A stretch of 64,000 nucleotides of DNA. Origin: Trypanosoma brucei. Taxonomy: Eukaryota. The notes under the pieces are model-generated. The model was not told the origin of the DNA and did no database searches. It was given only the letters and a program-made list of their open reading frames with translations. The position numbers and the translations under genes are program-made. The stretch is taken from the NCBI GenBank assembly GCA_000002445.1, contig CM000207.1, positions 352,001-416,000 of the forward strand. The letters are read 5' to 3'. This document shows positions 35,027 through 60,002 of this stretch, piece after piece; position 1 is the stretch's first letter, and the number at the start of each line of letters is the position of its first letter.

Positions 35027-36393
35027 TCCAAAGGGGATCGGGCCCAACTATCTTACCTTTAGCTTTGCTATCCTGGGTTCCTAACGATTCACTTCCTTCC
35101 CGACGAACTCGCCAACGTGAATGCGGCTTTTAAAACAACAAATTCTGGCACACGTGGAGCCCACTGAATAACAAAAAAAAACGCTGTGTTTGCGCACCGC
35201 ATGGACAAGGGAAAGGAAAGGGGATAAAAGCGTATGGAAATGTAAATGATTTGAATAAGCAGCAGCATGCAAGGAAACATGTTGAAAGGACTGTGCAGTG
35301 GACCGCAGGGTGGGGAAATGTGTGGTGCGGGCACCAAAACAAAATATTGATATCGGACGAGCAAACATCCTCACTCTGAAGTTGGTACATCTAAAAACTC
35401 GCCTCACATACACAAGAAAACATAAAAAAGGGGGGAAATTATAAACGGAGAAATAATAAGGGGAATAAAATACAGTCTTCTATTTCATTCCCGGAACATC
35501 TAGTTCTCACTTACAAACTCCCACACACCTCTCGCACGCAGTTTTTCACTCAGCCACGCACAAAATCATATAATTACATACATTCACGGACCAGTCTTTC
35601 CTCATACCAAAGACAAAGTGAGGACGGGCACAAGTGCATACAGGTTGCACTAATTTCCCCTCTATTTCCTTCTCACTGCATGTCAAAACTTCCCCACCAC
35701 AAATGTGACAGGCAGAAATATGGACTTGTAATCGGGAGTGCGTGTGCGCACAGATACACACACGCATGAACTCGTGCCTCCAAATCCCCCCCCCTCTTTT
35801 TTTCTCCAGCGAAGTACTCATATTTGACGAAACAAAAAAAGGGATAATTACCCGCCCCCGCAGAAAGGGAGGGGGAAAACATTATATACATACATGACAA
35901 AAGGCACACAAACTAGTGGAGCTGGAGGTAGTTTGCTTGATCAAAGGTGGAACACAAGGATGAACAAATGAGCTCTAGCGAAAAATTCACATACAAGCAC
36001 AAAAAGAGTCCATGCGCGAGCTCAACACCTTGATGAACAAGAGGACACTAAATCATACATTAACAAGTAGAAAAGAGAATGCGCTCGTACAGAGTCAAAG
36101 AAAAATTAAAACTGTGATGGTCCATAATATTTCTCAAGCTGCTCGTCTACCATCTTCCCATACCCTCAGTTTCTTCTTCACAGAGCTTGCCACTGTCTAA
36201 AGATGTTTGAAATTGCATTACATTCATGTGACAACAAAGCGGAGGGGAGAAACGAGAACGAACGAACATGAGCAACGAAAAAAAAAAAGCACGAGGTGGA
36301 AAAACATGTAGCACCGCTCACACCATCAATTTTACAGATCACAAGTTTACTTCAGCTGCTACACGGTACGAGAACGCCCAAATCAATCCATGA

Positions 36394-39300
36394 TCATCTC
36401 CTGCTCAAACCAACTCTAGCCGTTTTTTGTGCCCTCCCTGCAGCAGCTCTTCCTGACAAGGGCGCATTTATTGGCAATGAGGGCACTTTTACTCCACCAG
36501 GGGCGGGACTGCTGCCAGAGGACGAAGCTGCATGACGCATAGCGTCCCTCATATCGCCTTTCCCTCGTTTGCCTTTGGACGGCGGTTGTGGGATCATTAC
36601 GTGGTGAGCGCTAGAAATCTCAGGTAGCGTAATAACCTTTGCCGTTGGTGAGTGTTCGCCGGCGGCGAACTCCTGCGAGGGATCCACAATTTGGGGGAGT
36701 GTGATAGCAACATCCTTCTCACTTCTCGTGGTGGCATTGACGATGGGATTGTTGTAGCTGATACCGTCTTTGCATTCGGTAACCACCTGGATGGTGTAGC
36801 TCGTTGACGGTTCAAGCCCTTCAAGTGTAAACGTCGAGTCAGAGACTGTGCTTGCAAGAATGGGTGTGCAGTTACGCACCCCAATGTAAACACGATAGTT
36901 AATAACCCGATTGCCAGACCGGTTGCTACTGGTCTCTGATCGCGATGGTGTCCACATCAGCGTGACGCTGTTGTCCGTGGTCCCCACCACCGTGAGATCG
37001 GTAACTGGCTCTGGCGCAGTACCACTTGTCACTCCAACGGGTTCACAATACTCGCTGAAAGGACTACCCTCATCAACAAGCGAACACTTCACCCGACAAC
37101 GCACCTTCGCGGCGGGTCCCGTAAATCGCACACGGCAGTTAGTTTCTTCAACAATATCGATAACGCGCCATTCCACCGATCCCTTTGGTTTCCCACGGGA
37201 GTCCGTTGGAGAATGTGACTGCTCAACAACATACCTGTACGCATGATAACAGTCTGGAGCCTCCCACTGTAGCAAACCTGTTTGAGCGTTCTGCCGCCGT
37301 AGAGTTACAGATTGAGGTGGGAATGGTGCCGTTGTCAAGTTGACCTCAACCCAAGCCCCCCAAGAGTTATGCTCATCCATCGCTCGGACTTTGACAGTGT
37401 AGGAGGTGCAGCCGGTGAGGCCATCAATCGTGATGTTCTTCATTGGACCCTCCTCTCCTTCCACATCAAACTCAAGCTGTCGGAAATAAGGCTTTGCCTG
37501 TGAGGCACACAGAACAATGCGGCGCCAATCTGGTAGAAAGTCGTCCCCGCCTTCCTCCGTGGGACCGGCCCCGACGGTACAAGCAGCGCCAACGTCAACG
37601 GCATTTGCACCATCTACTTCCCCTTCCACTGCCGCCGCAGCGCCACTGGCCGCAGGCAACTGCGTATCAGCGGGCTCAACCTCAAGAGGGGCTGCAGCAC
37701 GTGGCAGCGCTTCCGCAGCCTCCCCAGCTGAAACAGTATAAACTGTAGCAGCAGCGTCATTGTTCACGGCAGTAGCGTTAACCTCATCCCCATCGTCATC
37801 CTTATCTTTAGAAGGAATTTCGTCTGTCTTGCGTACTTCAACCTGATATTTCTTTACAATTTGAACAACTGCCTTCCGCTCCATGCTTCCCTCCTCACCA
37901 ACCTCTCCATCCACAATCCTGGCACCCCCGAGCAGTGGATCCCCATGCGCCGGTGGCGATGCTATTCCAGTAGGACTGCCACTGCTTTGTGCGTCAGGAG
38001 GTGAAACAAGCCTAGGGAGCAGGCTTCGTTCCGAAACGGGTGACGGAGACTGCTTTGCTGCCGCTCCTTTGCCCGACTTGCCCCGCTTTGACCCTCCACT
38101 CCCCTTGCTCCCCTTGGGACTTCGAGTACCTTTCCTGCCCCTCGAACCGGTCCTACCCTTTCCGGTGGAGGTTCTACCAGCTGCAGAGCCAGTCGCGTCC
38201 GGTGAAGCTTCGGGGGGTGGGGGTGGCTCCATTCGGTTGAGGGTGAACTCTGCGGAGTCGCATGTAACACCGTTGAGGGCAACACAAATGGGACACAGTG
38301 TCTTGAAACCAACCGTGGGGGTCCATTGGCCCCAACTTAATTCATCATACCGAGGTTGAAGTGCCATAAGATAATCCAAACCAGGAGAAAGGCCCTCCAG
38401 TAAATAGGTCGGAAGTAGAAACTCATCATCCGTCACGCCACAGTCACTTGGATTAATTACATGTTCCACAGTTTCATTACCACCCTTTAAGACAAGCTGG
38501 TATTCGCAGGGATCCAGCCGAGGTTGGGAGTTGCATTTTTCTTCGGAGCGATCACCTTCGCCACGGTCCCACTTCATACGCACATAGATTTCTCCTACAT
38601 TCACCACATCTAATCGCAACACACGCTGCGTGCGGAATAACCCTTCCTTGCTCCACAGACCCCAGCGCGAGTCCGTATTACATGAGCGTACAACGACAAC
38701 GTAGGCCGCATCAGCCTCCAGGGAGCAGATACGGTAGCGGTTCACATCCTTCGGGAACTGCTTATCAACGATAGCGAGGGCTGGAGAGTGTTGCGAAGCG
38801 AACACACACAAATGGTATGCAATTACCTCTGGTGTCCCAAGAACAACGGGAACTGCAGCAACGGCATTGTTTGTAGTACTAGGAAGGCTCTCTGGTTCGT
38901 CAGCAGAAGCCGGGGTCTCGCCGCAACACCCCACAATATCCGCGTATTCTTGCACAGTTTGTTCGTCACGGAACCACTCCACCGTGGCAAACTGTTCACC
39001 AGGGGAGGAGACAATAAGCTGCATCGGCTTTAGAGTCGCAAAGAACGTTCGATCACTCCAGGGGCTCCACGACTCCCGTCGAGAATCCAAGGAACGCACG
39101 GACACCGAGTAGACAGTGGCGGCTTCAAGCAACTTAGCCCGGTAGCTGTTTCGCGCGCCCTTGAACTGCTTGCTAATGTGGTAACTGTGCTCAAGACCGA
39201 TAACGTCCACCTGAAACGTTGAAAGGAAATCATCATTGCCGCAGAGCGCCTCCGATCCGTCTGGAAGTAGCAGAGATCGACGGGGTCTTTGCCAGGAAAA

Positions 39301-42300
39301 CTCGGCGTAATTTTCACCAATAGAACTCATTTCGACGGCAAACTTTGGTAAGGTCATAACATGGACGATTCGGCTCCACCGCCCCCATACATTGTCCACG
39401 CAGCAGCGCACATGAATTCGATATAGCGAATCGTGACGCAGATTGCGTGCAACATAAGTGGTTTCGCTTCCTGAGAGTGGTTTGTCAATTAGCAAAGACC
39501 CTTCATTTGCAGCAGCATTGGGGCCCACCTCATAAACACGAAGCTGGTAGCTATCCACGGGCTTGGGGGGAAACGGATTTCGCACTGGTAGTGGTTGGGC
39601 CCGCGGGTCACGCTCCCAATGGACAGCAAAGAAGTCCTCAGCGCCGTCATCCATGAAACACACCATGTCACGCAGAGTTACGTCATATAGACCATCACTC
39701 CACGCACCTGGCTCCGCTCTACTTTGGTTGAGAGCCTCCACTATGCCTTCATCCTCAGCCTGTGGGAGTTCGGGATGTATGGTATCAACAACAAACTCTT
39801 CGTGCGGCTTATACCAACGTCGCACACTCACACGGTATCGGTGATGAGATAGCAACTCCTTTACTGTGCTGTTACGAACATTTGATGGAATTATCATCGT
39901 GCGGCGTAACCGGGGGGGAAGCTCCTCTGCATCCTCCTCGCCATATGACACATCAGTGAAGTCGTGAACAGCTAGCTCATAGCAAATCAACTCTTCTACA
40001 TCCGAAGGTTGCAGGTCGCTCGTGGCAAATGAGTTCGGAAGTCGTTGCCACGACGCCGTTAGGTAGTCTTCACCAAGGCCAATCAACTCCACACTCAACA
40101 GATTGAGTGTTCCACAGGTAACGTGGGTGCTACTGAGGCCAAACTCACCGCTTCCGTAGCACGCACGGACGGCCAAAGAGTACCGTTTGTCTGGTTTTAG
40201 CGACGACACTGTGAATGTCGTCTTCTCACCTGGCACGTTGAATGTGACACCCTCATCCTCACCTTCTTGCACGAAAGTGATGGCATAGTATGCAACACGA
40301 GTCTTTGCGCTGTTGTACATCGCGGACCTTACTTCTGGTTGGTCCAGAAGGGGGTATCTCTTTTGGCACAATCCGGGTTTCAGTTTGTCAGGTGACATGG
40401 CCCTAAAGGAGGAGCGACGCCCATCTTCTCTTTCCAGAGTTGTTTGAGACTCCGCAGCGAAACCAGAACTTTCGGAGAAATCTCCGGTCTGGCCCCCAAC
40501 ACTTCTGCTGCTTTCCCCCACGGTGATGGGTGTGTTATCGTCGCTGTCACGCCCACTGCTTCCCCCGTTGGACGTTTCCTCACCTTCGTCACTTAGCGTA
40601 CCGTTAGTATCTGTGGATGTGCGCACCATTACTTGCAGTTCATCGGGTTCCTTGCGCCTCCAATGAAGGCGCACATAGTCCTCACCAATAGCCAATACTT
40701 CCGCGCTTATAAGCTTCATGGTGTACACGCAACGTTCCTCCGACCAGAAGCCCCATTCACCAAGGTTGTTCGACGCGCATATTTTAAAAGTATACGGCCT
40801 GTTCGGGGTGAGAGAATCGAGGCGGTACTCCTGAAGATCACCAGCAAACCGCTTTTCGCACAACAACTTGCGGCTGGCTTCATCACAGCGATAGATGCGT
40901 AGAAGGTAGCCGGAGCAATCGCGACACCCGACGCAGATCGTTGGATCAAACCTCCCCTCATATTCGGTACCCTCATCACCTTTTGGTTGTTGCTCCTCAC
41001 GACCCCACTCCAACATGACAGAGTGCTCTGTGATTTGTGTGGGGTAAACCTCTAGGCGCTTAAGTGTCACAAAACGAAGCGGTTCCGACCACATACTTGA
41101 TGCTTCACATTCGTCAATGGAAAGCACCCTGACGGTATAAACTGTGTCCAGGTTCAGGCTTTTCAAACGGTAGTAGGTGTTGGTGGCTCCCGTTAGTACA
41201 ACATTTAACTGCAAGCCATCACGCCCAAGTACATCAATCATGTATGCTGATGCAACGTAACTCCCGGTGAACACTTCAGCCATATCCATTCTCGGATGCT
41301 GCCTGGGGGGAACGCGTTTCCATTCAATTTCGGCGTACTGTTCGTCGATGTGCTTCACATTGACCCGGATCTTCGACATCGTGAGGAAGTGTTGTTCAGC
41401 GCTCCACGCGCCCAACTGGCCTCCCGTGGTCACGCTCATAACTTGGACACTGTAGAAACGATCTTGCTTCAGATTTTCCACTCGGAAAGAGAATGTGTCT
41501 TTGTTGAACCGTCTAGTTAGGTGCAGCCGACCACTCCCATCACTTTCGTACTCAACCGGATGCTCCTGCGGGGGCAGAGGGCCCTGTGTCTGCTGCGTAG
41601 TGGTTAAAACTCCCACAATTTCATCTGCTAGCGTCTTTGGCGCTAGTTCTTCTTCGCTTACCGCGGGTTCCTCACAGCTCTCCCCATCAACGCCATTATC
41701 TTGTAACTCCAACACCCGCACGTAAAACATTTCATTATCCACGCCATGTTGCAGAACATTCATATCATTGTCGTAGTCTACTCTTCGATCTCGTCGCCTC
41801 CAGGTTATCTGGGCCCAATCTTCACCGAGTTTCTCCACAGTTGCAGACATACCAGGCATTGTAACGCATGTTTTTGGAGCACACCAAAGCCCCCAAGCTT
41901 CCTCAGCACCCCACTCACGCACTTCAAACGTGTACTTTGTGTCCACCTGCAGCTTGTCAACACGGAAGACACAGCACGAGCGCATGGTGCGGTACTCCTC
42001 GCAGATCTTCCCCTCATCATCTTCATTCTCACTCTCCCATGTAATACGCAGTTGACAAACACATCCTTCATGAGAAGACGCATCACTTCTCAGTGTGTTA
42101 GCTTCATCTATAGGTGGCAGACGCTTATTTGGAGCTCGGTGCCACTCGATGTCCACAAAGGTTTCAGATATGCACGTGATGGACAACTGGATGAGGCTCT
42201 GCGTCATGAACTTCAACGGCGGCGTCCATGGACCCCAACCTACACCGTAATCGCAACACAGAAGTGCCGTGTACATAGTATTCCATACCAGTTGCTTCAC

Positions 42301-45300
42301 CGTGAAGGCACAGATGATGGGTTCGTTAGTATCTCCGTTACTTTTGCCTTGAATGTAATGATCTTCAAAGGTGCCATTCTGATGAATGATACGCAACTGA
42401 TAACCCCTAATCGGTGTGTGCTCGTGCACAACTACTTCACCACGACCGCTAGCAAGCCAGTTCCTCTTCGCCTTGACGCTTTCCTTAAGGTCACGAAAGG
42501 TGGCAATCCTAGTGTATAGTTCTTGCTGCTCTTCACTCGAAAGCTCCTGTTCCTTTGCCTTAATGTCCTTGGGGCACATACTAGAAAACTCCTTGTTAAG
42601 CTCGAACAACTGCCTCTCGTCTGCTTCAATTTTCGCCGACACAGCTGGTGGTAAGCGATGCCAATAAAGACTGATAAAATGCTCACCAAACCGTTCATGC
42701 AGAAGTTCGATTGGCCTCAACGTTACGAACCGGTTGCGCTCACTCCATGGGCACCAGTCCCCCACGGCGTTCCGCGTCCGCACCTCCATCTCGAAAGGTG
42801 AATCGGGCGTGAGACCCTTCACGGTAATGGAGAGCACTTCGGGGCGTAACTGCACGTCAAAGAGGACAGAGTCTTCCCTTGGTAGACCCAAATCCATGTT
42901 TGCAACTGCTGGAGTTGACGGCTCCCCACCGTCCGAGGACGTCGCCAACTGGGCGCCACCAGGAGCCGACATGTCCACATGGGCGCACTCCATATGGCAT
43001 GCACTGGTAGCTCCTGACATCAGCTTGCGTTGCTGCCGCTTCATTTTGGTCAATAATCTCATAGATTCCGCTCGGCGCTTTCGCCCAACCATCTTTTGAG
43101 AGGGAGAATGAAGTAATAAATGATGAACTCCCTGAATGGTTGGCATAACTCCTTCACCATAAAATCGCAGGTGGTATCCTGTTACCTCTGGGTCGCCCAA
43201 AACAATGTTTTCAACACGGAGGTGATGTATTGCGTCATTGCGGACCGCTGCGTTGTGCTCGTGCCGTAACTCAAGGTGGTCTTTCAAATTATTCCGCTCC
43301 TCTGACTCCTCCAGTTCCTGTAACCGTCGTTTCATGTCGAAAAGTTCGTGTCGCTCACGCTCATCACAGCGTCGCTCCTCTGCGGTACGGCGCTCTTCAA
43401 GGAATGCTTCGTATTTTCTGACATCCTGCGGTATCCGGAACCAGCGGATAATCGCCATCGTCTCGGTGTGGTGCGATACTTCGGTAACCATGGAGGTGAG
43501 AGTTAGCACAGATTCACGGTGAGAAAGCATCGACCAGTGTCTCTTTTCACTCAATGAACGCACGCACACAGAATAAATCTGGTCGGGTTGGAGACCGGTG
43601 ATACGAACAGACATTTGGTACTTGGATAACGTAAGGCACTGTTGCACATCGCACGTAATGCCCTCAAGATAAAGCTCGTAACGCTCGATGGAGTAGTCCC
43701 CAATTTGCACTGCGTCCCAATCGTTGCCGTCATCCTCACCGTCCTCGACCTGTAATTTGCCTTCCACTCCATTGTCACTGGGAAGCACGGACGCCGGCTC
43801 AGGCTCGGCGTCGGACCCCGCATCCAGACCACTGAGGATATCAGTTTCTGTAAACATGCCGCAAAGCTGGGGCAAGTCCCCCAAGTCATCAGGTTTGTTG
43901 AGATCAGGCCGAGCACAAGCCCAATCGGGTAGCGGTCGACTCCAACTCACCAGAATAACATCTTCATACACGGAGTGTACCTTCACCTTCAGTCGACCCT
44001 GCGACACAAACTTCGTTACCTCGCTCCACGGACCCCAGTACCCCTCTGCCTTGGCACGCATGCTCACCGCGTATATGGTGTTACTCACAAGGTTTCCTAA
44101 ATGATACGAGGTTGCAGTGGGCTCAAGAGAGAGAACAGTATCCAGCGAAAGGGGGCCCTCGTACTTCTTTTTTGCCTTAGCATCCAACCGAGTGGCACGA
44201 AGCTCATACGCAGTCACTTTCACCACACCACGAATAATACCCGTTTCTGGGGTTGTGTCAAGCTTCCGGGGAACGCGTCGCCACCCCACCAAGCAGTAGT
44301 CCTCACCAATTTCGATTGGTACAACACCCATCGGATGAACCATTTCCACGACAGCCGTTTGGGAAAAAGTTCCCCATGAATCGGGCACGAACTTCCCTCT
44401 GAAATCAATCCGTTGCTCGCATACAACAACACGGTAATGCGCACCTGGGGTTAAATTACAGAGTCGCAGTGATCGCTGGGAGGTTTCGTATAGTCGGGCA
44501 CCGTTTACAAGAGGTTCATCACGCTCATCGAACGGCTCTTCCGCTGCCAGAGGTTCGATGTGCACCTGGTAATTGTGGATGTCCGCTTCCTCGGGGTAGC
44601 AACAGAAGCAGTGGCTCACTGCTCTTGTCATGGGTGGACGAGTCCATGAAACGTTTATGAAAGTTTCGGTTATGCTGTCAGTACTTAACTTTAGGAGCGG
44701 ACACGTTACCAATATCCGTGGCTTGCTCCAGTGACCCCATGTGTTGTTTTTATCCTGCGCCCGTACGGTAAGGGTGTACTCGGCATCCGCCTGAAGATTT
44801 GTAACTAGTCGACCCATTTCGGCCGCCGGAGCATAAAACTCTACAATATCATCTGCACCAGGTAGGCCACCGGAGAGGCGACGGCACTCCATCTGGACAT
44901 GCCACTGCAGGATATCAGGGCATCCACGCATCACCGTCTCATCAAAAATGTAATCATCGTCCCCGTCACCACCTTCACCACTCGCTAACTCAGAGGATGC
45001 AGTGCAACCATAAACATGTCGGGCACCACGACTAATAATCGAAACACAGCTGCTAGCCCTCCGCTTTATTTGTTCAACATCAGACCCGCCCACATCTCCT
45101 TCTGCCGCCAACGCAGCTTCAGACGCGGCGCTATAGCTTCCGGTGTCACTGCTCCCCTCACCGTCTGTGAAGCCGGAAGTGCGCCGTCCGCTGCGTCGGT
45201 CCACAAGGTCGCTGCGCCGCTCTGCCAGATCGCTGCGGCGGCCCCATTCCAACTGACAAAATGTTTCACCGACAAGCAGCACGTTTGCTTCAACTGATTC

Positions 45301-48300
45301 GAGAGTCACGAAGCGCCTAGAATCACTCCACAAACCCAGTTCATCATATGTATCTTTTGCTGACACTTCGACCGAGTATATCGTTGAAAGTTTCAGCGAC
45401 GACAGCGTACATGTTGTTTGCCTAAAATTGACATACTGTGATACCACTTCATTACCTTCCTTGTCCAGTACATGTACCTTGTACCCGCTCACGGCCCTAT
45501 CCACTGCATTCGTCTCACCTTCATTTTCCCAATTCCTATCACCTGCCCAATTTGGTCGAAACCAAGACACTGTGACGTAATCTTCACCGATGGCCGTAAT
45601 GTCCAACTGCAATTTCGGTAGCGTGCGTACGCGGGCCTCCTCGTTCCAAAATCCCCATATACCCTCGTAGCCCTTCGCACACAGCCAGACACAATACTCC
45701 GCAGATGGCTGCAGATCTTTGAGCCGGAAACTGCTGACGTACGGGCTGAGATCGTAGACGTAATGAACCGGATCACCGACTCTCTCCACCCTTAGTCTGA
45801 ATTGCTGCACAACATCCTCAGACTCAAACACCGCTTCGGTGTCACAGCGGTCAAGGCACGTGGGCAGATGGCGACGCCATTCAACAATGGCAAAATGTTC
45901 GCCAACGTTCCCGAATGTCACACGGAGCCTCGGTTTGGTGTGAAACGACCGGGTCGCCCAAATTCCCCAATCCTGCTTATCTGAGCCACGTGACCGCACA
46001 CCGAATTTATACACCGTATCTGGAAGAAGACCACGAAAAAACAGCTTGTTGTCTTGCACCTCCTTCGTGAATTTGAAATATCCGTCGCCAGCGATGCATA
46101 CCTCGTAACCTTTCGCAGTGGCATCGGTGTTGAGAGCAGTGTCAAAACTAACCAAATTGGAGGTGTCAGACATTCGCGACCACGAAACCCACACGGCATC
46201 TTCGGACACGTGGTGGATGGAGATATCCATTCCAGGAATAGTGCGCACCTTTGCTTCTGTGCTCCACACGCCCCACACTGAATTTTCTCCACAAGTTTGC
46301 ACCACGATACCGTATGTGGTCGAGGGTTGCAGTTCATTGATGTGCAGCGCAGTGAGAGAATTGCTTACTTCAATCAACTTCTGAAAACTTCCATCAATTT
46401 CACGGATTTTTACTCGAGAGGCTACAATAGTTCCCTGTTCAAGTTTCACCTCTGACGATCCACTAACGTGTGGCGGGATGTTGTGCTTGTTGCGTTTCCA
46501 TCCTACACTGACAAAATCTTCTCCAATATCAGTGAACTCTACCTCTGTGGGTGGCACCGTGGCGAAGAAAAGCGGGGGCTGCGACCACATACCCCATTCA
46601 CCGTTCGTCAATTTTGACCGGACAGAAACACAGTACACGGTGTTGGCACGAAGACTGGGGATGGTATGTTCTGTGTCTTCCGTTGTGCTACAAAATTCAG
46701 TTTGGTATATCAAACGGTGGTCGGCTGCGTTTACTGGCAAAGACGAATTATGCACACGCGGCTTAAGTTGTCCTGTGGAACTATGAGGCAACAAGTTCTC
46801 TACGGGGGATGTTACGCACAACATAAGGCAAGGACGGCACTGGCCAAATACTACTACTCTATCGTCGCTGCTTCTGTTTCCATCGTCCTCAGGAAGCCGC
46901 TTCTGTTGGTGGGGCCGGTGTACATTGATTTCACAGAACTCCTCGGATATAACTCTCGTCTGGATTTCCAAGCTCTTCATCGTAAGGCACCACAGTGGCG
47001 AGCTCCATGAGCCCCACTCCTCGTCGTTGTAATTTGCCTTTATTTCCACGCAGTAGTATGTATCCGGCTTCAGGTTGGAGATACGGTACGGTGAGTCTCC
47101 ATCGCCAAGAAAAACTTCGAACACAACACCCCCAACGTTGAACACCCGCAAATGATACGATGTTACGACACCCCTCCCGGTTGCGTAATTTTTCTGGTTC
47201 GGCGGACGACGCCGCTCCCAAGCAATTATGGCATAATCGTCTGCTACTTCTACAGCCCGAGTAAGGATGGTATCACGGGTGAGTATTTGCACGGGCGGGG
47301 TCCAAAGCCCCCAATCCCCACTTGGTCCAGCGGCTCGTATTTGAATGTTGTATGCCGTGGCGTGGTGAAGTCCGTAAATCTTAAGCTCCCGCATGTCCGC
47401 TGGTAGTGAATGGTCCTTGGAGTAGGACTGGTCAATACTCTGTATGCGCAGTTCCTGCTTTGTGACGGTCAAGTCTCCAGTGTGGACATCCTTGTTTTTC
47501 AGCGGATTGGCATCTCGGCTCCACACAATGCTTACATAATTCTCTCCGATGATGAGGTTGTTCACCGGAATTCGAAACTGTGCGTTTGAACGGAAGCGCA
47601 ACGGCTGACTCCACAAGCCCCACATCCGCGTGGACGTGCACGCACGCACGACAGCCATATATTCTCGATCAGGAAGCAGGTCTTCCACACGTAACGACGT
47701 GTGCTCACTGGACACAACCTTGTACCGGGCAACTTCAGAGTTCCCACCCATATGATAGCCACTCAGCGAGCTCGCCGACGACCCAGAGAGCTCCCGGCTG
47801 AAAACAAACACAGCATAGCTCGATACGAACATATCAGCAGCTGCCACGGCCACCGTATTGTCCCTGTCATCACCTTTTGTATTAATGCCGTCTCCACCCA
47901 CCAGAACATCGTCAACTAGCTGCCGCTCCCACATGAGCCGCACAAAGTCCTCTCCGATTTCGTCAACATGCATCATCATAGGAGCCAGTGTACGCAGCTT
48001 CACGCGACTCCAAGCACCCCACTGCTCCACCTCGTTGCATGCACGGACTGAGACGATGTAAGTTGTTGCAGGCTGTAGGTTGCTGATCTTGAAACTCGTT
48101 CCCAACATTTCCTCCCTTAGGACTTCGGTTTCCCCAGAATCAACGCAGTCGACGCAAAGCTCATACTTGAGATCGGCCCATAACTCAGAGATCCCCATAT
48201 CAGAAGATCCCATAGGTAGGGGTACGTCAGAGAGTCCACGACGCCACACAACCTGGGCGAAGTCTTCACCAATATCCCATAGTCTCACACCAAGTGGTTG

Positions 48301-49833
48301 CAGCGTTTGTGTGTGTTTGGGGTCAGTGAACTCACCCCATCCCTCATAACCAGTTAGACGATTAAATTGGTATGACCTGCATTTTAAAATATACATGGTG
48401 TTGGGCCTCAGCTTCTCTACAGTAAACATACATGTATCTCCATCTGACACGATTTCCTCATCTTTCACAACATTCAACTCGTCATGGCTCTCAACCTGCA
48501 TAATAACGATGTTGAATCGAGATGCAAAGCGGCCGTTGCACTCTCCCTCGAGTTTCATAGTTATGAAGTCCTCACCGCGCTCCAAAAAAGTTAATGAAGC
48601 CCTTGCCTCCGTGCGAAATTTCTTGGGTTCTGTCCACATACCCCACTCATTGTTCAAGAACGTCCGTATTGATACATTATACTCCGTCCCGGATGTGAGA
48701 CCCTCAATGTGTATGACTTTATCATCTGCCAACGGTCCAACATCAAGCCTTTCCTCCTGCTTGTACACAGAGTTAAGACTACTGAGACGGTACTCTACCT
48801 GAGTCTCCGTCTCTGCGTCGATCATTCTGGCCCAGGTAAAAGAAAGGAATGACTCCCCTGAGGCAACTACAGATAGCTCCGGACGACTAGCAGTTCGCAC
48901 GCAAAGCGGTTCAGAGCACCTCCCCCAATAGCCCTGCACGCTCAGGCTACGGACAGTGAAAATATAAGAACCCCCTGGTGTTAACTTATCTAGGCGGTAC
49001 GTCCGCTCTTGTTGAGGGAACTCAACAGAGCGAAAAGTCTGACAATCCGATTGAACCAGGACCTCATAGCGGTGCACGTCGTTATCTGGCACAACGTAAC
49101 CGATGGTATCGTCTGAAGTACTGGCTAGAGCCCAACTGACGGTAACAACATCCTCACCGCAGCTCAGGAGTGACATGACATTCGTCTGCCTAGTGAGGAA
49201 GCGACCAACCTCCACCCATTTCTTCATGGTGTTGATGAGCGTCTTGTACCGAATCATAACAATATAAGCCGTACCTGGCCGCAGACCTCGAACTATGTGT
49301 GTTCGCACACCTGTTTCGAAGCGGTCACAAAATTCCTGCCTCATATCAGATTCCCTGAGTACCCGTAACTCAAAGTCGTCAATATCGGCAATGGAACGGG
49401 TGGCATCAGCATCGATTTCCGCAGCGATGCCCGTTGGGGCCCTTGCAGGTCTGTCCCACAGCACACGCACGTAGTCCTCACCAACATCATTGATTTGGCC
49501 CGTAACCGCCGCCAAAGTGGCCGTCCGTGTCACCTCCGACCACACGCTCCACGACATCGTTTTCTCCGAATACACACGAACACGGGCCCTATAAAAACTT
49601 GAAGCCCGAAGCTTCACCACTTTGTGACGCTGTTTGATAGGCAAGACTATATCGTAGAGAGTTTCAACAGTGTCTTCCCCTGCTGTTTCCTCATCCACCT
49701 GAAGCTGCCACTTCGTCACGTCGGTAACGTCATTCCAGCTATGCTTAGAATCAAACTGGAACCCAAACTCCCCAAACATCTCGCCCATACGGTTCACAAC
49801 GGCATTGCACAGAATATCTGTATTAGCTTCCAT
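36394..49833 (-). CDS. giant protein (about 4479 aa) built from about 30-40 diverged fibronectin type III-like repeats, plus a Gly/Ser/Lys-rich low-complexity segment near the C-terminus
   Basis: One uninterrupted 13.4-kb ORF. Recurrent unit of about 100 aa beginning (I/V)GE(D)(Y/F)hxhxWxR and ending WGxWSxPxxF(R)T; at least 28 clear copies (e.g. IGEDFVRLMWERQ...WGLWSQPLRFRS; IGEDYVTVSWFRP...WGFWNEEARVRT). The C-terminal copies are canonical FN3 (PEPVTDLTVVGTTDNSVTLMWTP...YRVY...LEPSTSYTIQVV). No N-terminal signal peptide. The ORF-track start at 49852-49854 is TTG; the first ATG is at 49831-49833. Confidence 0.85.
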   Translation of the reverse strand: MEANTDILCNAVVNRMGEMFGEFGFQFDSKHSWNDVTDVTKWQLQVDEETAGEDTVETLYDIVLPIKQRHKVVKLRASSFYRARVRVYSEKTMSWSVWSEVTRTATLAAVTGQINDVGEDYVRVLWDRPARAPTGIAAEIDADATRSIADIDDFELRVLRESDMRQEFCDRFETGVRTHIVRGLRPGTAYIVMIRYKTLINTMKKWVEVGRFLTRQTNVMSLLSCGEDVVTVSWALASTSDDTIGYVVPDNDVHRYEVLVQSDCQTFRSVEFPQQERTYRLDKLTPGGSYIFTVRSLSVQGYWGRCSEPLCVRTASRPELSVVASGESFLSFTWARMIDAETETQVEYRLSSLNSVYKQEERLDVGPLADDKVIHIEGLTSGTEYNVSIRTFLNNEWGMWTEPKKFRTEARASLTFLERGEDFITMKLEGECNGRFASRFNIVIMQVESHDELNVVKDEEIVSDGDTCMFTVEKLRPNTMYILKCRSYQFNRLTGYEGWGEFTDPKHTQTLQPLGVRLWDIGEDFAQVVWRRGLSDVPLPMGSSDMGISELWADLKYELCVDCVDSGETEVLREEMLGTSFKISNLQPATTYIVSVRACNEVEQWGAWSRVKLRTLAPMMMHVDEIGEDFVRLMWERQLVDDVLVGGDGINTKGDDRDNTVAVAAADMFVSSYAVFVFSRELSGSSASSLSGYHMGGNSEVARYKVVSSEHTSLRVEDLLPDREYMAVVRACTSTRMWGLWSQPLRFRSNAQFRIPVNNLIIGENYVSIVWSRDANPLKNKDVHTGDLTVTKQELRIQSIDQSYSKDHSLPADMRELKIYGLHHATAYNIQIRAAGPSGDWGLWTPPVQILTRDTILTRAVEVADDYAIIAWERRRPPNQKNYATGRGVVTSYHLRVFNVGGVVFEVFLGDGDSPYRISNLKPDTYYCVEIKANYNDEEWGSWSSPLWCLTMKSLEIQTRVISEEFCEINVHRPHQQKRLPEDDGNRSSDDRVVVFGQCRPCLMLCVTSPVENLLPHSSTGQLKPRVHNSSLPVNAADHRLIYQTEFCSTTEDTEHTIPSLRANTVYCVSVRSKLTNGEWGMWSQPPLFFATVPPTEVEFTDIGEDFVSVGWKRNKHNIPPHVSGSSEVKLEQGTIVASRVKIREIDGSFQKLIEVSNSLTALHINELQPSTTYGIVVQTCGENSVWGVWSTEAKVRTIPGMDISIHHVSEDAVWVSWSRMSDTSNLVSFDTALNTDATAKGYEVCIAGDGYFKFTKEVQDNKLFFRGLLPDTVYKFGVRSRGSDKQDWGIWATRSFHTKPRLRVTFGNVGEHFAIVEWRRHLPTCLDRCDTEAVFESEDVVQQFRLRVERVGDPVHYVYDLSPYVSSFRLKDLQPSAEYCVWLCAKGYEGIWGFWNEEARVRTLPKLQLDITAIGEDYVTVSWFRPNWAGDRNWENEGETNAVDRAVSGYKVHVLDKEGNEVVSQYVNFRQTTCTLSSLKLSTIYSVEVSAKDTYDELGLWSDSRRFVTLESVEANVLLVGETFCQLEWGRRSDLAERRSDLVDRRSGRRTSGFTDGEGSSDTGSYSAASEAALAAEGDVGGSDVEQIKRRASSCVSIISRGARHVYGCTASSELASGEGGDGDDDYIFDETVMRGCPDILQWHVQMECRRLSGGLPGADDIVEFYAPAAEMGRLVTNLQADAEYTLTVRAQDKNNTWGHWSKPRILVTCPLLKLSTDSITETFINVSWTRPPMTRAVSHCFCCYPEEADIHNYQVHIEPLAAEEPFDERDEPLVNGARLYETSQRSLRLCNLTPGAHYRVVVCEQRIDFRGKFVPDSWGTFSQTAVVEMVHPMGVVPIEIGEDYCLVGWRRVPRKLDTTPETGIIRGVVKVTAYELRATRLDAKAKKKYEGPLSLDTVLSLEPTATSYHLGNLVSNTIYAVSMRAKAEGYWGPWSEVTKFVSQGRLKVKVHSVYEDVILVSWSRPLPDWACARPDLNKPDDLGDLPQLCGMFTETDILSGLDAGSDAEPEPASVLPSDNGVEGKLQVEDGEDDGNDWDAVQIGDYSIERYELYLEGITCDVQQCLTLSKYQMSVRITGLQPDQIYSVCVRSLSEKRHWSMLSHRESVLTLTSMVTEVSHHTETMAIIRWFRIPQDVRKYEAFLEERRTAEERRCDERERHELFDMKRRLQELEESEERNNLKDHLELRHEHNAAVRNDAIHHLRVENIVLGDPEVTGYHLRFYGEGVMPTIQGVHHLLLHSPSQKMVGRKRRAESMRLLTKMKRQQRKLMSGATSACHMECAHVDMSAPGGAQLATSSDGGEPSTPAVANMDLGLPREDSVLFDVQLRPEVLSITVKGLTPDSPFEMEVRTRNAVGDWCPWSERNRFVTLRPIELLHERFGEHFISLYWHRLPPAVSAKIEADERQLFELNKEFSSMCPKDIKAKEQELSSEEQQELYTRIATFRDLKESVKAKRNWLASGRGEVVVHEHTPIRGYQLRIIHQNGTFEDHYIQGKSNGDTNEPIICAFTVKQLVWNTMYTALLCCDYGVGWGPWTPPLKFMTQSLIQLSITCISETFVDIEWHRAPNKRLPPIDEANTLRSDASSHEGCVCQLRITWESENEDDEGKICEEYRTMRSCCVFRVDKLQVDTKYTFEVREWGAEEAWGLWCAPKTCVTMPGMSATVEKLGEDWAQITWRRRDRRVDYDNDMNVLQHGVDNEMFYVRVLELQDNGVDGESCEEPAVSEEELAPKTLADEIVGVLTTTQQTQGPLPPQEHPVEYESDGSGRLHLTRRFNKDTFSFRVENLKQDRFYSVQVMSVTTGGQLGAWSAEQHFLTMSKIRVNVKHIDEQYAEIEWKRVPPRQHPRMDMAEVFTGSYVASAYMIDVLGRDGLQLNVVLTGATNTYYRLKSLNLDTVYTVRVLSIDECEASSMWSEPLRFVTLKRLEVYPTQITEHSVMLEWGREEQQPKGDEGTEYEGRFDPTICVGCRDCSGYLLRIYRCDEASRKLLCEKRFAGDLQEYRLDSLTPNRPYTFKICASNNLGEWGFWSEERCVYTMKLISAEVLAIGEDYVRLHWRRKEPDELQVMVRTSTDTNGTLSDEGEETSNGGSSGRDSDDNTPITVGESSRSVGGQTGDFSESSGFAAESQTTLEREDGRRSSFRAMSPDKLKPGLCQKRYPLLDQPEVRSAMYNSAKTRVAYYAITFVQEGEDEGVTFNVPGEKTTFTVSSLKPDKRYSLAVRACYGSGEFGLSSTHVTCGTLNLLSVELIGLGEDYLTASWQRLPNSFATSDLQPSDVEELICYELAVHDFTDVSYGEEDAEELPPRLRRTMIIPSNVRNSTVKELLSHHRYRVSVRRWYKPHEEFVVDTIHPELPQAEDEGIVEALNQSRAEPGAWSDGLYDVTLRDMVCFMDDGAEDFFAVHWERDPRAQPLPVRNPFPPKPVDSYQLRVYEVGPNAAANEGSLLIDKPLSGSETTYVARNLRHDSLYRIHVRCCVDNVWGRWSRIVHVMTLPKFAVEMSSIGENYAEFSWQRPRRSLLLPDGSEALCGNDDFLSTFQVDVIGLEHSYHISKQFKGARNSYRAKLLEAATVYSVSVRSLDSRRESWSPWSDRTFFATLKPMQLIVSSPGEQFATVEWFRDEQTVQEYADIVGCCGETPASADEPESLPSTTNNAVAAVPVVLGTPEVIAYHLCVFASQHSPALAIVDKQFPKDVNRYRICSLEADAAYVVVVRSCNTDSRWGLWSKEGLFRTQRVLRLDVVNVGEIYVRMKWDRGEGDRSEEKCNSQPRLDPCEYQLVLKGGNETVEHVINPSDCGVTDDEFLLPTYLLEGLSPGLDYLMALQPRYDELSWGQWTPTVGFKTLCPICVALNGVTCDSAEFTLNRMEPPPPPEASPDATGSAAGRTSTGKGRTGSRGRKGTRSPKGSKGSGGSKRGKSGKGAAAKQSPSPVSERSLLPRLVSPPDAQSSGSPTGIASPPAHGDPLLGGARIVDGEVGEEGSMERKAVVQIVKKYQVEVRKTDEIPSKDKDDDGDEVNATAVNNDAAATVYTVSAGEAAEALPRAAAPLEVEPADTQLPAASGAAAAVEGEVDGANAVDVGAACTVGAGPTEEGGDDFLPDWRRIVLCASQAKPYFRQLEFDVEGEEGPMKNITIDGLTGCTSYTVKVRAMDEHNSWGAWVEVNLTTAPFPPQSVTLRRQNAQTGLLQWEAPDCYHAYRYVVEQSHSPTDSRGKPKGSVEWRVIDIVEETNCRVRFTGPAAKVRCRVKCSLVDEGSPFSEYCEPVGVTSGTAPEPVTDLTVVGTTDNSVTLMWTPSRSETSSNRSGNRVINYRVYIGVRNCTPILASTVSDSTFTLEGLEPSTSYTIQVVTECKDGISYNNPIVNATTRSEKDVAITLPQIVDPSQEFAAGEHSPTAKVITLPEISSAHHVMIPQPPSKGKRGKGDMRDAMRHAASSSGSSPAPGGVKVPSLPINAPLSGRAAAGRAQKTARVGLSRR

Positions 49834-51011
49834 CTTACTTTTGTAATATACCAACCTGATCTTCCCTCACCTTCCCCCTTTCCTCTTCCTTATTTACAAA
49901 TAGTGATCCGTACTGTTTCCCTTCCTCTCTCCCTGATTAGTCACTATTCCTCCCCCTCAATTCCTTCCGTTCTTGAGCGGATGTCCCTTTTTCTCTAGAT
50001 GAATGTGCCGGAACAAACTTTTTGCCGGGCAGTCTCTTGTCGTGTTGCGTGCCCCCTTTCAGTTACCATGCAACGTAAGACAACAGTAGCAGGTGGGAAG
50101 TACAAATGGACAACAGAAACGAGACGGGACAACAACGAATATCCCCTCTCTACGACTCCGTCGTACACTCCGTCTTCCTTTTTTGGTTTGTTTCTCACCC
50201 TGCTGCAATAACGGAAGTAGCCACCAAAAAAAAATCGGAGCCCAAGAAATTAAAGAAAGGCAAAGATGCAAATGTGACGAAAGCGGTAGGAAATCGAAAC
50301 AGCAACTTGGGTTAGGATGAACAGAGCGAAAAGGAAAGGTGGCACATAGGTATTCACAGCCGTGGGCCTCAATTTATGAGAAGGAGGTGAAAGAACATGT
50401 TAAACAGAAAAAAGTGTAAGCACTTCAGCACGAAAAAGTGGAAACCTAAGGTGTGGTAGACAACAAAAAAACGCTAAAACAAAAAAGAATTAGGTCCACG
50501 CACACTTGCGCTTGTGTAAAACAGTCTCCGAGATAACAACTCCTAAAAAGGAACAAAAGAACGGGGCATGGAAAACAAAAAACAAGTGAAAACGGTCCTC
50601 AGTATACGTAACGGTGAGGAAGGACGTGATGTACCCGCTCCGACGGCCACGCATCCCGCACTGACAGGAGAGAGGTGGGAGTGGGGAAGAGTGCGAATCA
50701 ATCGTGACACACATCACGGAAGGGGCACCACATATGCCACAGCAACAGAAAACATATTTTGCGCCCTGAGAGACACATATCGCCTTGCGGTGGGCCCCCA
50801 GGCACCCTCAGGTGTAGACACACACGACGGAGTTTGTGAGTTTACTATAAACAAAGAAAATAAAAAAGAGAATCGGCAACCAACATTTCGCTTCCTTCCT
50901 CCGATCTAGGGTCCCCGTCAAAACCTCTAGTGGGAAAAGAAAAGTGAGGCAACGATCACGACAATGCTACAGAAGAAAGACATAAAATGGAAATGAGGCG
51001 GCGTCCCAGTC

Positions 51012-59945: not shown

Positions 59946-59965
59946 TTCAGAAAGCAAACAATGCA

Positions 59966-60002
59966 CTGAAGGAACAATAACCCCCCCCAAAAAAAAAACA
60001 AG
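59966..60002 (-). promoter_or_regulatory. polypyrimidine tract plus AG dinucleotide: candidate spliced-leader trans-splice acceptor for the HECT ligase gene
   Basis: Minus strand reads cttgtttttttttttggggggggttattgttccttcAG, followed 20 nt later by the first ATG (59943-59945). This is the standard kinetoplastid pre-mRNA processing signal. Confidence 0.5.

What the first reader, a model, noticed from the sequence alone, without database searches (positions are those of the whole stretch)
36394..49833. 4479-aa protein composed almost entirely of diverged FN3-like repeats with a conserved GE(D)(Y/F)..W.R ... WGxWS..F.T signature, apparently cytoplasmic
FN3 arrays of this length are characteristic of metazoan muscle or extracellular proteins and of some bacterial surface proteins; a repeat protein of about 30-40 units in a kinetoplastid is unusual. 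There is no N-terminal signal peptide or obvious transmembrane segment, which suggests an intracellular scaffold, possibly cytoskeletal or flagellar. The WGxWS element recalls the WSxWS motif of class-I cytokine-receptor FN3 domains. The repeats are highly diverged at the DNA level, so this is an old array rather than a recent amplification. A C-terminal Gly/Ser/Lys-rich tract (GKGRTGSRGRKGTRSPKGSKGSGGSKRGKSGKG) and an acidic stretch could be a charged linker.
Basis: partly seen in the sequence, partly recalled or inferred. Interest (0 to 1): 0.6.

Follow-up and report, generated by a model that had tools for sequence, protein, structure and literature searches.

The report
Giant flagellar FN3-repeat protein of trypanosomes
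This is the annotated trypanosome gene Tb927.9.1750, a 500-kDa intracellular chain of 33 fibronectin-type-III modules that sits in the flagellar skeleton and whose Leishmania counterpart is needed for normal swimming; its exact place and mechanism in the flagellum are still unknown.

Summary
One ORF on the minus strand (36394-49833) encodes 4479 aa (503 kDa). It consists of 33 tandem FN3 domains joined by linkers of about 4 residues, and it carries the reported GE(D)(Y/F)..W.R and WGxWS..F.T signature.

The protein is identical to a T. equiperdum entry and differs by one residue from T. brucei TREU927 Q38FX4, gene Tb927.9.1750. No signal peptide or transmembrane segment was found.

All 33 units are individually orthologous and collinear in T. 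cruzi, Leishmania and Bodo, and largely so in prokinetoplastids and diplonemids. Units within one protein are only about 20% identical to each other, so the array is old and fixed in length.

Published data place the protein in the flagellar cytoskeleton:
- The L. mexicana orthologue LmxM.26.2380 is about 31-fold enriched in flagella and detergent-insoluble.
- Its deletion nearly halves swimming speed and directionality, much like loss of the paraflagellar rod.
- The T. brucei protein is in the DRC1-APEX2 axoneme-proximity proteome.
- Its RNAi is deleterious in bloodstream forms.

The gene is already annotated and has been screened, but its mechanism and its exact site (axoneme or PFR) remain open.

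The parts
36394..49833 (-). Complete CDS of Tb927.9.1750 (4479 aa, 502.8 kDa, pI 5.2; stop codon at 36394-36396)
   Evidence: ORF list and translation. 100% identical to T. equiperdum SCU67497.1 and 1 mismatch to T. brucei TREU927 Q38FX4. Gene ID taken from the orthologue table of PMC6615630. Mass and pI.
49771..49833 (-). N-terminal 21 residues ahead of the first FN3 unit; acidic, with no signal-peptide-like hydrophobic core
   Evidence: Translation and hydropathy scan. Conserved in orthologues (mean identity 0.45).
45301..49770 (-). FN3 units 1-14 (aa 22-1511), back to back with linkers of 4-6 residues; units 7 and 10 carry moderate loop insertions
   Evidence: Self-profile HMM, unit alignment, linker lengths. 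Each unit has its own collinear orthologue in T. cruzi, L. mexicana and Bodo.
46555..47565 (-). Units 8-10 (aa 757-1093), the most conserved part of the protein (56-66% mean identity across 13 orthologues); unit 9 holds the invariant KANYN-EEWG-WS stretch
   Evidence: Conservation profile, invariant columns. AlphaFold2 model m4e45cea49404: pLDDT 87.7, pTM 0.77, three beta-sandwiches of mainly seven strands (the insertion-bearing unit 10 shows more). Foldseek PDB top hits are all tandem FN3.
44701..45288 (-). Unit 15 (aa 1516-1711), split by an 88-residue acidic, Ser/Gly-rich loop (aa 1543-1630, nt 44944-45207) after strand B; the loop contains a short RRSDL tandem repeat
   Evidence: Two partial HMM hits merge into one full-length match (83 bits) when the loop is removed. 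Low conservation (identity 0.09). 21-nt tandem repeat at 45189-45241.
43999..44688 (-). Units 16-17 (aa 1716-1945)
   Evidence: Self-profile HMM; collinear orthologous units.
43498..43986 (-). Unit 18 (aa 1950-2112), with a 61-residue acidic loop (aa 1973-2033, nt 43735-43917) after strand B
   Evidence: Splice test gives a full-length FN3 match of 86 bits. The loop is poorly conserved. Composition.
42718..43485 (-). Unit 19 (aa 2117-2372). Order of elements: strands A and B; a conserved charged helical hairpin (aa 2138-2203, nt 43225-43422); strand C; a disordered basic loop (aa 2243-2319, nt 42877-43107); then strands C' to G
   Evidence: AlphaFold2 model m3424d667eabc: helices at model residues 22-57 and 63-87 with pLDDT about 71-93, and residues 127-203 below 50. 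The hairpin motif QCDERER-ELFE-KR is conserved (E44, R45, E59 and E76 nearly invariant; identity 0.41 and occupancy 0.99 over aa 2161-2220).
42199..42699 (-). Unit 20 (aa 2379-2545), with a three-helix insertion (aa 2396-2461, nt 42451-42648) between strands B and C; the A-B strands RFGEHYINLYWHR are almost invariant
   Evidence: AlphaFold2 helices at model residues 280-300, 305-314 and 317-345. Invariant columns F266-R277. Splice test 69 bits.
40717..42186 (-). Units 21-24 (aa 2550-3039); unit 22 has an acidic loop insertion
   Evidence: Self-profile HMM; orthologous units.
40105..40704 (-). Unit 25 (aa 3044-3243), split by a 98-residue Ser/Glu/Gly-rich loop (aa 3065-3162, nt 40348-40641)
   Evidence: Splice test gives a full-length match of 87 bits. 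Low conservation.
38296..40092 (-). Units 26-30 (aa 3248-3846); unit 26 appears to have an insertion in the F-G loop before its G-AWS motif
   Evidence: Self-profile HMM, unit alignment, translation. The F-G loop placement in unit 26 is my reading of the sequence, not modelled.
37327..38289 (-). Unit 31 (aa 3849-4169).
   Evidence: The C-terminal half matches the FN3 profile (32 bits). With the tract removed the match extends to profile positions 6-97 (43.6 bits). The tract is the least conserved part of the protein (identity 0.07-0.15, occupancy 0.33-0.86). The fold of this unit was not modelled.
36757..37314 (-). Units 32-33 (aa 4174-4359): more generic FN3 domains without the WGxWS motif; unit 33 is the best single Pfam fn3 match
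   Evidence: Pfam best stretch 4276-4359. PDB sequence hits to fibronectin. Unit alignment.
36397..36756 (-). C-terminal tail (aa 4360-4479): basic (pI 10.7), Ser/Pro/Ala/Gly-rich, weakly conserved, probably disordered
   Evidence: Composition, conservation 0.22. Disorder is inferred from composition only.

Best explanation
The ORF is Tb927.9.1750, an intracellular structural protein of the flagellar cytoskeleton found in kinetoplastids and diplonemids.

**Shown**
- It is a chain of 33 non-identical FN3 beta-sandwiches joined by linkers of about 4 residues, with no secretion or membrane signal.
- The number, order and individual identity of the modules are conserved from Trypanosoma to Bodo, and largely to diplonemids.
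- Several modules carry loops inserted after strand B. Two of these are conserved charged helical bundles and the others are variable low-complexity loops.
- The Leishmania orthologue is detergent-insoluble, enriched in flagella and needed for normal swimming speed and directionality.
- The T. brucei protein is biotinylated by axoneme-anchored DRC1-APEX2, and its knock-down costs fitness in bloodstream forms.

**Inferred**
- The chain forms an extended, fairly stiff rod. Taking the usual 3.5-4 nm per FN3 module, it would be about 115-130 nm long. This is my own estimate, not a measurement.
- The rod lies along or between the periodic lattices of the flagellum, either the axonemal doublets or the paraflagellar rod and its connectors.
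- Each module acts as a distinct docking site, and the helical insertions of units 19-20 act as projecting binding elements.
- Losing this scaffold would weaken mechanical coupling or regulation of the beat. That would explain a swimming defect as strong as loss of the whole paraflagellar rod.

Whether it sits in the axoneme or in the PFR is not resolved.
For: **Fold and architecture**
- Pfam fn3 E=3e-113.
- 33 units from the self-profile; linkers almost all 4 residues.
- AlphaFold2 models with pTM 0.77 for three consecutive units, and helical insertions between strands B and C.
- Foldseek top hits are all tandem FN3.

**Fixed, position-specific array**
- 32-34 profile hits in every full-length orthologue from Trypanosoma to Diplonema.
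- Best unit-to-unit matches are collinear in 33 of 33 steps for T. cruzi, L. mexicana and Bodo, 28 of 33 for the prokinetoplastid PhM-4 and 29 of 33 for Diplonema.
- Paralogous units within the protein are only 20% identical.

**Intracellular**
- No TM-like or signal-like segment.
- TM 0 and signal peptide 'null' are listed for LmxM.26.2380.

**Flagellar cytoskeleton**
- LmxM.26.2380 spectral counts: Ci 14, Cs 0, Fi 44, Fs 1. log2 soluble/insoluble is -7.4 and log2 cell body/flagellum is -4.95.
- Listed as 'proteome and tagging' evidence for flagellar localisation. The orthologue is in the Subota 2014 T. brucei and Dupe 2015 L. donovani flagellar proteomes.
- Tb927.9.1750 is in Table S1 of the DRC1-APEX2 pellet proximity proteome.

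**Function**
- Complete deletion of LmxM.26.2380 gives speed 3.98 um/s and directionality 0.161, both p<0.0005.
- Mutants not different from the parent give 6.8-7.4 um/s and 0.29-0.33.
- The PFR-less dPFR2 mutant gives 4.68 um/s and 0.164.
- RIT-seq representation of Tb927.9.1750 drops to 0.05 (day 3) and 0.02 (day 6) in bloodstream forms. It is listed there alongside IFT, hydin, dynein and PFR genes.
Against: - No image, immuno-EM or cryo-ET assignment was available to me, so the position inside the flagellum and the rod-like extended state are inferences.
- The protein is not a modelled chain in any PDB entry; the best sequence hit is fibronectin at E=1e-5. If it were a well-ordered, periodic axonemal component it might have been built into recent trypanosome axoneme maps. 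That expectation rests on my own knowledge, not on a check.
- It is absent from the Broadhead 2006 salt-extracted flagellar skeleton proteome.
- The motility phenotype comes from one population-level screen, and no add-back is listed for this mutant.
- No titin-like super-repeat was found. That weakens, but does not exclude, a ruler matched to a short lattice period.
- 14 of 59 spectra came from the insoluble cell-body fraction. One study also finds the protein near Alba3/4 granules, so a pool outside the flagellum is possible.
Confidence: 0.7

Rival explanations
1. It is specifically a component of the paraflagellar rod or of the PFR-axoneme connectors. On this view it is a lineage-specific lattice strut, not a protein of the axoneme proper.
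For: - No Chlamydomonas or human orthologue is listed.
- Named orthologues occur only in kinetoplastids, prokinetoplastids and diplonemids. These lineages are known to build a PFR (established knowledge).
- The deletion phenotype (3.98 um/s, directionality 0.161) is almost the same as that of the PFR-less dPFR2 mutant (4.68 um/s, 0.164).
- It is absent from solved structures. I am assuming here that trypanosome axoneme maps are among them.
Against: - It was not flagged as a PFR proteome component in the Beneke table; the prior evidence is given as 'shotgun proteome only'.
- It was labelled by DRC1-APEX2, which is anchored on the axoneme. That pellet fraction does also contain the PFR.
- Many axonemal mutants (DRC, MIA) swim equally slowly.
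- No euglenid orthologue was identified.
Confidence: 0.3
2. It is not a static structural element. Instead it is an assembly, transport or regulatory factor, for example a cargo adaptor or signalling platform, and its loss disturbs flagellar composition indirectly.
For: - It is reported as a potential TbDYRK substrate and in APEX proximity to Alba3/4.
- It has long disordered, charged loops typical of regulated interaction hubs.
- Some spectra come from the cell-body insoluble fraction.
Against: - It is almost entirely detergent-insoluble (1 of 59 spectra soluble) and strongly enriched in flagella.
- The 33-module architecture with fixed length and order, conserved over a very long time, is what one expects of a built-in structural part.
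- The IFT mutants in the same screen are far more severe (1.6-2.1 um/s, flagellum absent).
Confidence: 0.1
3. It is an extracellular or surface adhesion protein, like most long FN3 arrays in animals and bacteria.
For: - The best PDB structural and sequence matches are extracellular FN3 proteins such as fibronectin, Dscam, LAR and contactins.
- The W-x-x-W-S motif resembles the cytokine-receptor WSXWS motif.
Against: - There is no signal peptide, TM segment or C-terminal hydrophobic GPI-type signal. TM 0 and signal peptide 'null' are listed for the orthologue.
- It is absent from the flagellum surface/matrix proteome (Oberholzer 2011: NO).
- It is detergent-insoluble and reachable by an axoneme-anchored peroxidase.
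Confidence: 0.02

Closest known systems
[quoted passage not shown]
   Same: It is this gene. The protein is 100% identical to the T. equiperdum entry and differs by 1 residue from T. brucei TREU927 Q38FX4. LmxM.26.2380 is 5059 aa, the same length as my L. mexicana hit.
   Different: Nothing differs. The published record is limited to database annotation and rows in supplementary tables (flagellar proteomes, a knock-out screen, APEX, RIT-seq). No paper I could search discusses its architecture or mechanism.
Titin / twitchin / obscurin / myomesin: intracellular FN3- and Ig-repeat filament proteins of muscle
   Same: All are giant cytoplasmic chains of beta-sandwich modules with short linkers that are built into a periodic cytoskeletal lattice involved in force generation. 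Titin A-band FN3 tandems are among the Foldseek hits (8bnq).
   Different: - There are no convincing Ig (I-set) domains; the only hit has E=0.028 and is below the cut-off.
- There is no kinase domain.
- No super-repeat periodicity was found.
- The lineage differs, and similarity does not go beyond the generic FN3 fold.
- The helical hairpins inserted in the B-C loop have no counterpart in muscle proteins that I know of.
Hydin, CFAP47, CFAP65 and similar giant ciliary proteins made of ASH/MSP Ig-like repeats
   Same: These are very large axonemal proteins built from many beta-sandwich repeats and needed for normal beating. Hydin and CFAP47 mutants appear in the same Leishmania screen.
   Different: - The repeat family differs (ASH/MSP versus FN3).
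- Those proteins are conserved across ciliated eukaryotes, whereas this one has no Chlamydomonas or human orthologue.
- The hydin mutant is much more severe (2.3 um/s, curled flagella).
Class I cytokine receptor FN3 domains with the WSXWS motif
   Same: A Trp-x-x-Trp-Ser motif lies just before strand G of an FN3 domain, with a conserved Arg in strand F ('VRA') that could in principle stack with the Trp residues. The positional equivalence rests on established knowledge of the receptor fold.
   Different: - The consensus is WGxWS, not WSXWS; only two of the 33 units read W-S-x-W-S.
- There is no signal peptide or TM segment.
- There is no two-domain receptor module with its conserved cysteines.
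- The motif recurs in about 25 consecutive domains rather than once.
- The Pfam Interfer-bind match is one of several overlapping generic FN3 hits.
Integrin beta4 cytoplasmic FN3 pairs
   Same: These are a precedent for FN3 domains working inside the cell as cytoskeletal docking modules (1qg3 is among the Foldseek hits).
   Different: They comprise four domains in the tail of a membrane receptor, not a free-standing 33-domain chain. They are also unrelated in lineage and context.

Membership tests
FN3 domain superfamily (Pfam PF00041 and relatives) | Profile match above the curated gathering score | tested here: met
   fn3 scores 370.6 bits against a cut-off of 25, E=3.1e-113, in 18 stretches. 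Pur_ac_phosph_N, FN3_DSCAM-DSCAML_C and Interfer-bind also pass their cut-offs.
FN3 domain superfamily (Pfam PF00041 and relatives) | Seven-stranded beta-sandwich fold of about 90-100 residues | tested here: met
   AlphaFold2 of units 8-10 shows three beta-sandwiches of mainly seven strands (the insertion-bearing unit 10 shows more; pLDDT 87.7). Units 19-20 have the same strands plus insertions. The top 50 Foldseek PDB hits for both models are all FN3-containing structures.
FN3 domain superfamily (Pfam PF00041 and relatives) | Core signature residues: Trp in strand B, Leu in the E-F turn, and the Tyr 'corner' in strand F | tested here: met
   W in 23/25 aligned units, L in 32/33 and Y in 31/33.
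Orthogroup Tb927.9.1750 / LmxM.26.2380 | Sequence identity with the named T. brucei gene product, and full-length collinear orthology with LmxM.26.2380 | tested here: met
   1 mismatch in 4479 aa to Q38FX4 / XP_803466.1. The L. mexicana hit is 5059 aa with 33/33 collinear units. The table in PMC6615630 pairs LmxM.26.2380 (length 5059) with Tb927.9.1750.
Flagellar cytoskeleton component (axoneme/PFR fraction) | Enrichment in isolated flagella and in the detergent-insoluble fraction | not testable with these tools
   Taken from the literature, not tested here. LmxM.26.2380 counts are Fi 44, Fs 1, Ci 14, Cs 0 spectra. Tb927.9.1750 is in the DRC1-APEX2 pellet proteome.
Paraflagellar rod component | Localisation restricted to the PFR-bearing part of the flagellum, and dependence on PFR1/PFR2 for incorporation | not testable with these tools
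   No localisation image or PFR2-dependence data could be reached. The TrypTag supplement as held does not contain the gene ID. The only support is a similar knock-out phenotype and a compatible taxonomic range.
Class I cytokine receptor homology module | WSXWS motif in a membrane-proximal FN3 domain of a type I transmembrane receptor with a signal peptide | tested here: not met
   The consensus is WGxWS (G in 24/30, S in 4/30 at the second position). No signal peptide or TM segment was found. The motif is repeated in about 25 domains.
Titin-like muscle filament proteins | Mixed Ig (I-set) and FN3 modules arranged in super-repeats, usually with a kinase domain | tested here: not met
   I-set scores E=0.028 and 14.9 bits, below its cut-off of 23.7; no kinase family was hit. 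No similarity peak appears at any lag from 1 to 16 (|z|<1.5).

The most novel reading that the evidence does not exclude
The protein is a fixed-length molecular ruler or longitudinal strut of the euglenozoan flagellum. It would be a rod of about 120 nm made of 33 non-equivalent FN3 modules that lies along the PFR or the PFR-axoneme interface. It would set or bridge the lattice periodicities there, with the conserved helical hairpins of units 19-20 as cross-links. That would make it a flagellar functional analogue of titin that arose independently of muscle.
Probability: 0.2. Interest if true: 0.7.

Novelty: already known. Interest (0 to 1): 0.4.

Why it matters
The trypanosome flagellum is essential for viability and transmission, and its lineage-specific parts, such as the paraflagellar rod and its links to the axoneme, are still poorly assigned to proteins.

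This 500-kDa protein has kept exactly 33 distinct modules in the same order across kinetoplastids and, largely, diplonemids. In Leishmania its loss slows swimming as much as loss of the entire paraflagellar rod. It is therefore a strong and testable candidate for a structural scaffold.

It also shows that long FN3 arrays were recruited for intracellular mechanical roles outside animals. As a discovery, however, it is not new. The gene is annotated as an FN3 protein and already appears in flagellar proteomes and in a knock-out screen.

Tried and rejected
1. **Chance or spurious ORF.** Rejected. The ORF is conserved at full length in 19 database clusters and peptides have been detected.
2. **Recent tandem amplification.** Rejected. 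There is no DNA repeat with a period near 300 bp, and units are 20% identical.
3. **Titin-like super-repeat.** Mean BLOSUM similarity by domain lag 1-16 shows no peak.
4. **Orthologues outside Euglenozoa.**
   - An exhaustive HMMER profile search of 1.84 billion representatives gave clear orthologues only from kinetoplastids, prokinetoplastids and diplonemids.
   - The next tier (Anaeramoeba FN3 giants at 312 bits, then amphioxus FN1, PTPRQ, usherin, bacterial proteins) lacks the WGxWS/GEDY signature.
   - Hits at about 22% identity that do carry the signature turned out to be a shorter diplonemid paralogue family, DIPPA_17498.
5. **Solved structure.** None exists; only generic fibronectin hits were found.
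6. **Literature.**
   - Searches combining FN3 or fibronectin type III with trypanosome, flagellum, TrypTag, paraflagellar or accession numbers found nothing relevant.
   - The TrypTag and hyperLOPIT supplements, as held (partly truncated), do not contain the gene or the word fibronectin.
   - The Subota 2014 paper is not held.
7. **Clues from gene neighbourhood.** The neighbours (HECT E3 ligase, Mcm10-like, Tim17-like, MATH-BTB, Sec1, kinase) are unrelated, as expected in a polycistronic unit.
8. **The 'charged linker' reading of the Gly/Ser/Lys tract.** Replaced by an intradomain loop in unit 31.
Full report
**What is in the sequence.** The window carries 17 ORFs of 200 aa or more on the minus strand and one embedded plus-strand ORF. 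This is the layout of a kinetoplastid polycistronic unit. The ORF in question runs from 36394 to 49854. Its first ATG is at 49833 and gives a 4479-aa protein of 502.8 kDa and pI 5.2. Pfam assigns it to fn3 with E=3.1e-113 in 18 separate stretches, and to several other FN3-type families above their cut-offs.

**Repeat structure.** A profile built iteratively from the protein's own repeats finds 37 segments that resolve into 33 units of about 100 residues. The units are separated almost always by 4 residues. The strand-B Trp, the E-F Leu, the Tyr corner and the W-G-x-W-S/T motif are present in the great majority of units. Units are on average 20% identical to one another, and there is no DNA tandem repeat with a period near 300 bp. 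I found no membrane-helix-like or signal-peptide-like segment.

[quoted passage not shown] That entry sits on a 64.8-kb contig, probably the source of the window. The protein differs by one residue from T. brucei brucei TREU927 XP_803466.1 / Q38FX4. The orthologue table of Beneke et al. 2019 (PMC6615630) pairs LmxM.26.2380 with Tb927.9.1750. LmxM.26.2380 is 5059 aa, the exact length of my L. mexicana hit.

**Evolution.** Full-length orthologues of 4300-5300 aa exist in T. cruzi, T. rangeli, T. melophagium, Leishmania, Leptomonas, Bodo saltans, the prokinetoplastid PhM-4, and the diplonemids Diplonema, Sulcionema and Rhynchopus.
- Every full-length orthologue gives 32-34 hits to the unit profile.
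- Each T. brucei unit finds its best match at the corresponding position. Matches are collinear in 33 of 33 steps in T. cruzi, L. mexicana and Bodo, 28 of 33 in PhM-4 and 29 of 33 in Diplonema.
- The array is therefore ancient, fixed in length, and made of modules that each keep their own identity. Units 8-10 and 13 are the most conserved (54-66% mean identity over 13 orthologues).
- An exhaustive profile search of 1.84 billion representative proteins found no convincing orthologue outside Euglenozoa. The next-best proteins (Anaeramoeba FN3 giants, then metazoan and bacterial FN3 arrays) lack the signature.
- Diplonemids have at least two further paralogous FN3 giants.
- No euglenid sequence could be named.

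**Insertions.** Six units appear as two partial profile hits. Removing the intervening segment restores a single full-length FN3 match of 44-87 bits.
- AlphaFold2 of units 19-20 (pLDDT 77) shows the geometry directly. Strands A and B come first, then a long helical hairpin (aa 2138-2203), then strand C, a disordered basic loop and strands C' to G.
- Unit 20 has a three-helix insertion at the same place.
- The hairpin carries a conserved charged motif (QCDERER-ELFE-KR), and the A-B strands of unit 20 (RFGEHYINLYWHR) are almost invariant.
- The other insertions are acidic or Ser/Gly-rich and poorly conserved.
It is not an inter-domain linker.
- AlphaFold2 of units 8-10 gives pLDDT 87.7 and pTM 0.77 for three consecutive sandwiches, which suggests defined inter-domain packing.
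- For both models the best PDB matches are tandem FN3 structures.
- I looked for a titin-like super-repeat and found none.

**Where the protein is and what it does (literature).** In the L. mexicana flagellar proteome, LmxM.26.2380 gave 44 spectra in the insoluble flagellar fraction, 1 in the soluble flagellar fraction, 14 in the insoluble cell-body fraction and 0 in the soluble cell-body fraction. The log2 soluble/insoluble ratio is -7.4 and the log2 cell body/flagellum ratio is -4.95. The table lists 0 TM domains and no signal peptide.

In the same paper's mutant table it has code K21. Flagellar localisation is supported by 'proteome and tagging', and the orthologue is present in the Subota 2014 and Dupe 2015 flagellar proteomes but not in Broadhead 2006 or Oberholzer 2011. 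Swimming data from that table are below.

| Mutant | Speed (um/s) | Directionality |
|---|---|---|
| K21, complete deletion of LmxM.26.2380 | 3.98 | 0.161 (both p<0.0005) |
| Mutants not different from the parent | 6.8-7.4 | 0.29-0.33 |
| dPFR2 (PFR absent) | 4.68 | 0.164 |
| DRC and MIA mutants | about 3.7-5.4 | not compared |
| Hydin mutant | 2.3 | not compared |

In T. brucei, Tb927.9.1750 is listed in Table S1 of the DRC1-APEX2 proximity proteome, which was made from detergent-insoluble pellets containing axoneme and PFR (PMC8141408). RIT-seq values quoted by Ouna et al. 2012 (PMC3332058, Table 4) are 0.05 at day 3 and 0.02 at day 6 in bloodstream forms. The gene is listed there next to IFT, hydin, dynein and PFR genes. 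One study lists it as a potential TbDYRK substrate found near Alba3/4. It is not a chain in any PDB entry.

**Interpretation.** It is shown that this is an intracellular, detergent-insoluble flagellar protein made of 33 FN3 modules, and that its orthologue is required for normal motility. It is inferred that it forms an extended rod of about 115-130 nm, taking the usual 3.5-4 nm per FN3 module. On this inference the rod is built into the axoneme or the PFR and its connectors as a scaffold with position-specific docking sites.

The taxonomic range and the PFR2-like phenotype favour the PFR side. The axoneme-anchored APEX labelling is compatible with either. I put about 0.3 on a PFR-specific role, 0.1 on an indirect assembly or regulatory role and 0.02 on an extracellular role.

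**Comparison and novelty.** Functionally the closest analogues are titin-type intracellular FN3/Ig filaments and the giant ASH-repeat ciliary proteins such as hydin. Membership in either family fails on domain type, super-repeats and phylogeny. The WGxWS motif sits where cytokine receptors have WSXWS, but every other defining feature of that family is absent.

The gene is annotated and has already been picked up by proteomic and knock-out screens, so the finding is 'already known'. What appears not to have been described is the strict 33-unit collinearity back to diplonemids and the helical insertions in the B-C loops.

Noticed in passing
window 51012-60026 (-): The gene immediately upstream in the window encodes a 3004-aa protein with a C-terminal HECT ubiquitin-ligase domain, SPRY domains and a RanBP2-type zinc finger. 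It is a giant E3 ligase.
   Followed up: partly
window 32831-35047 (-), 31453-32376 (-), 27049-28854 (-), 61927-63825 (-), 22660-24612 (-): The neighbouring genes are functionally unrelated: an Mcm10-like zinc-finger protein, a Tim17/Tim22/Pmp24-family protein, a MATH-BTB protein, a Sec1-family protein and a protein kinase. Almost all ORFs of 200 aa or more lie on the minus strand, as in a single polycistronic unit.
   Followed up: partly
window 12404-17221 (-) and composition at 12-18 kb: A 1605-aa ORF gives only a weak match to a 6-TM 'ArAE_2_N' family. It lies in the only stretch of the window where AT skew turns clearly negative (-0.10 to -0.23).
   Followed up: no
window 45189-45241 and 37626-37664: Two short imperfect tandem repeats (21 nt x 2.5 copies and 15 nt x 2.5 copies) lie inside the variable loop insertions of units 15 and 31. 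The first encodes RRSDLAERRSDLVDRRSG. This suggests the loops grow by local slippage.
   Followed up: partly
window 41746-42519 (+) and 37883-38359 (+): Two ORFs of 257 and 158 aa lie antisense inside the giant gene. They are most likely by-products of the long open frame on the other strand. They were not examined further.
   Followed up: no
protein P0021 (T. b. gambiense DAL972 CBH13972.1): The T. b. gambiense model is 4277 aa. It aligns to the window protein in two overlapping pieces at only about 94% identity with many gaps. That is low for subspecies of T. brucei and suggests an assembly or gene-model problem in that record.
   Followed up: partly
proteins P0038 (DIPPA_17498, locus L001) and P0062 (DIPPA_01460): Diplonema papillatum and other diplonemids carry further FN3 giants. 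One is a family of about 2400 aa with the same WGxWS/GEDY signature, about 22% identical and collinear with the N-terminal third of the trypanosome protein. The other is a family of about 3500 aa that largely lacks the signature. Metagenomic relatives of the first family at about 33% identity may belong to other euglenozoans.
   Followed up: partly
aa 957-1093 (window 46555-46965), unit 10: Unit 10 has a highly conserved insertion (RPxQQKRLPEDDGN...FGQxRPxxMLCVTSP). AlphaFold2 models it as extra strands packed on the sandwich, followed by a short disordered loop. It is as conserved as the core, so it is probably a specific binding surface.
   Followed up: partly
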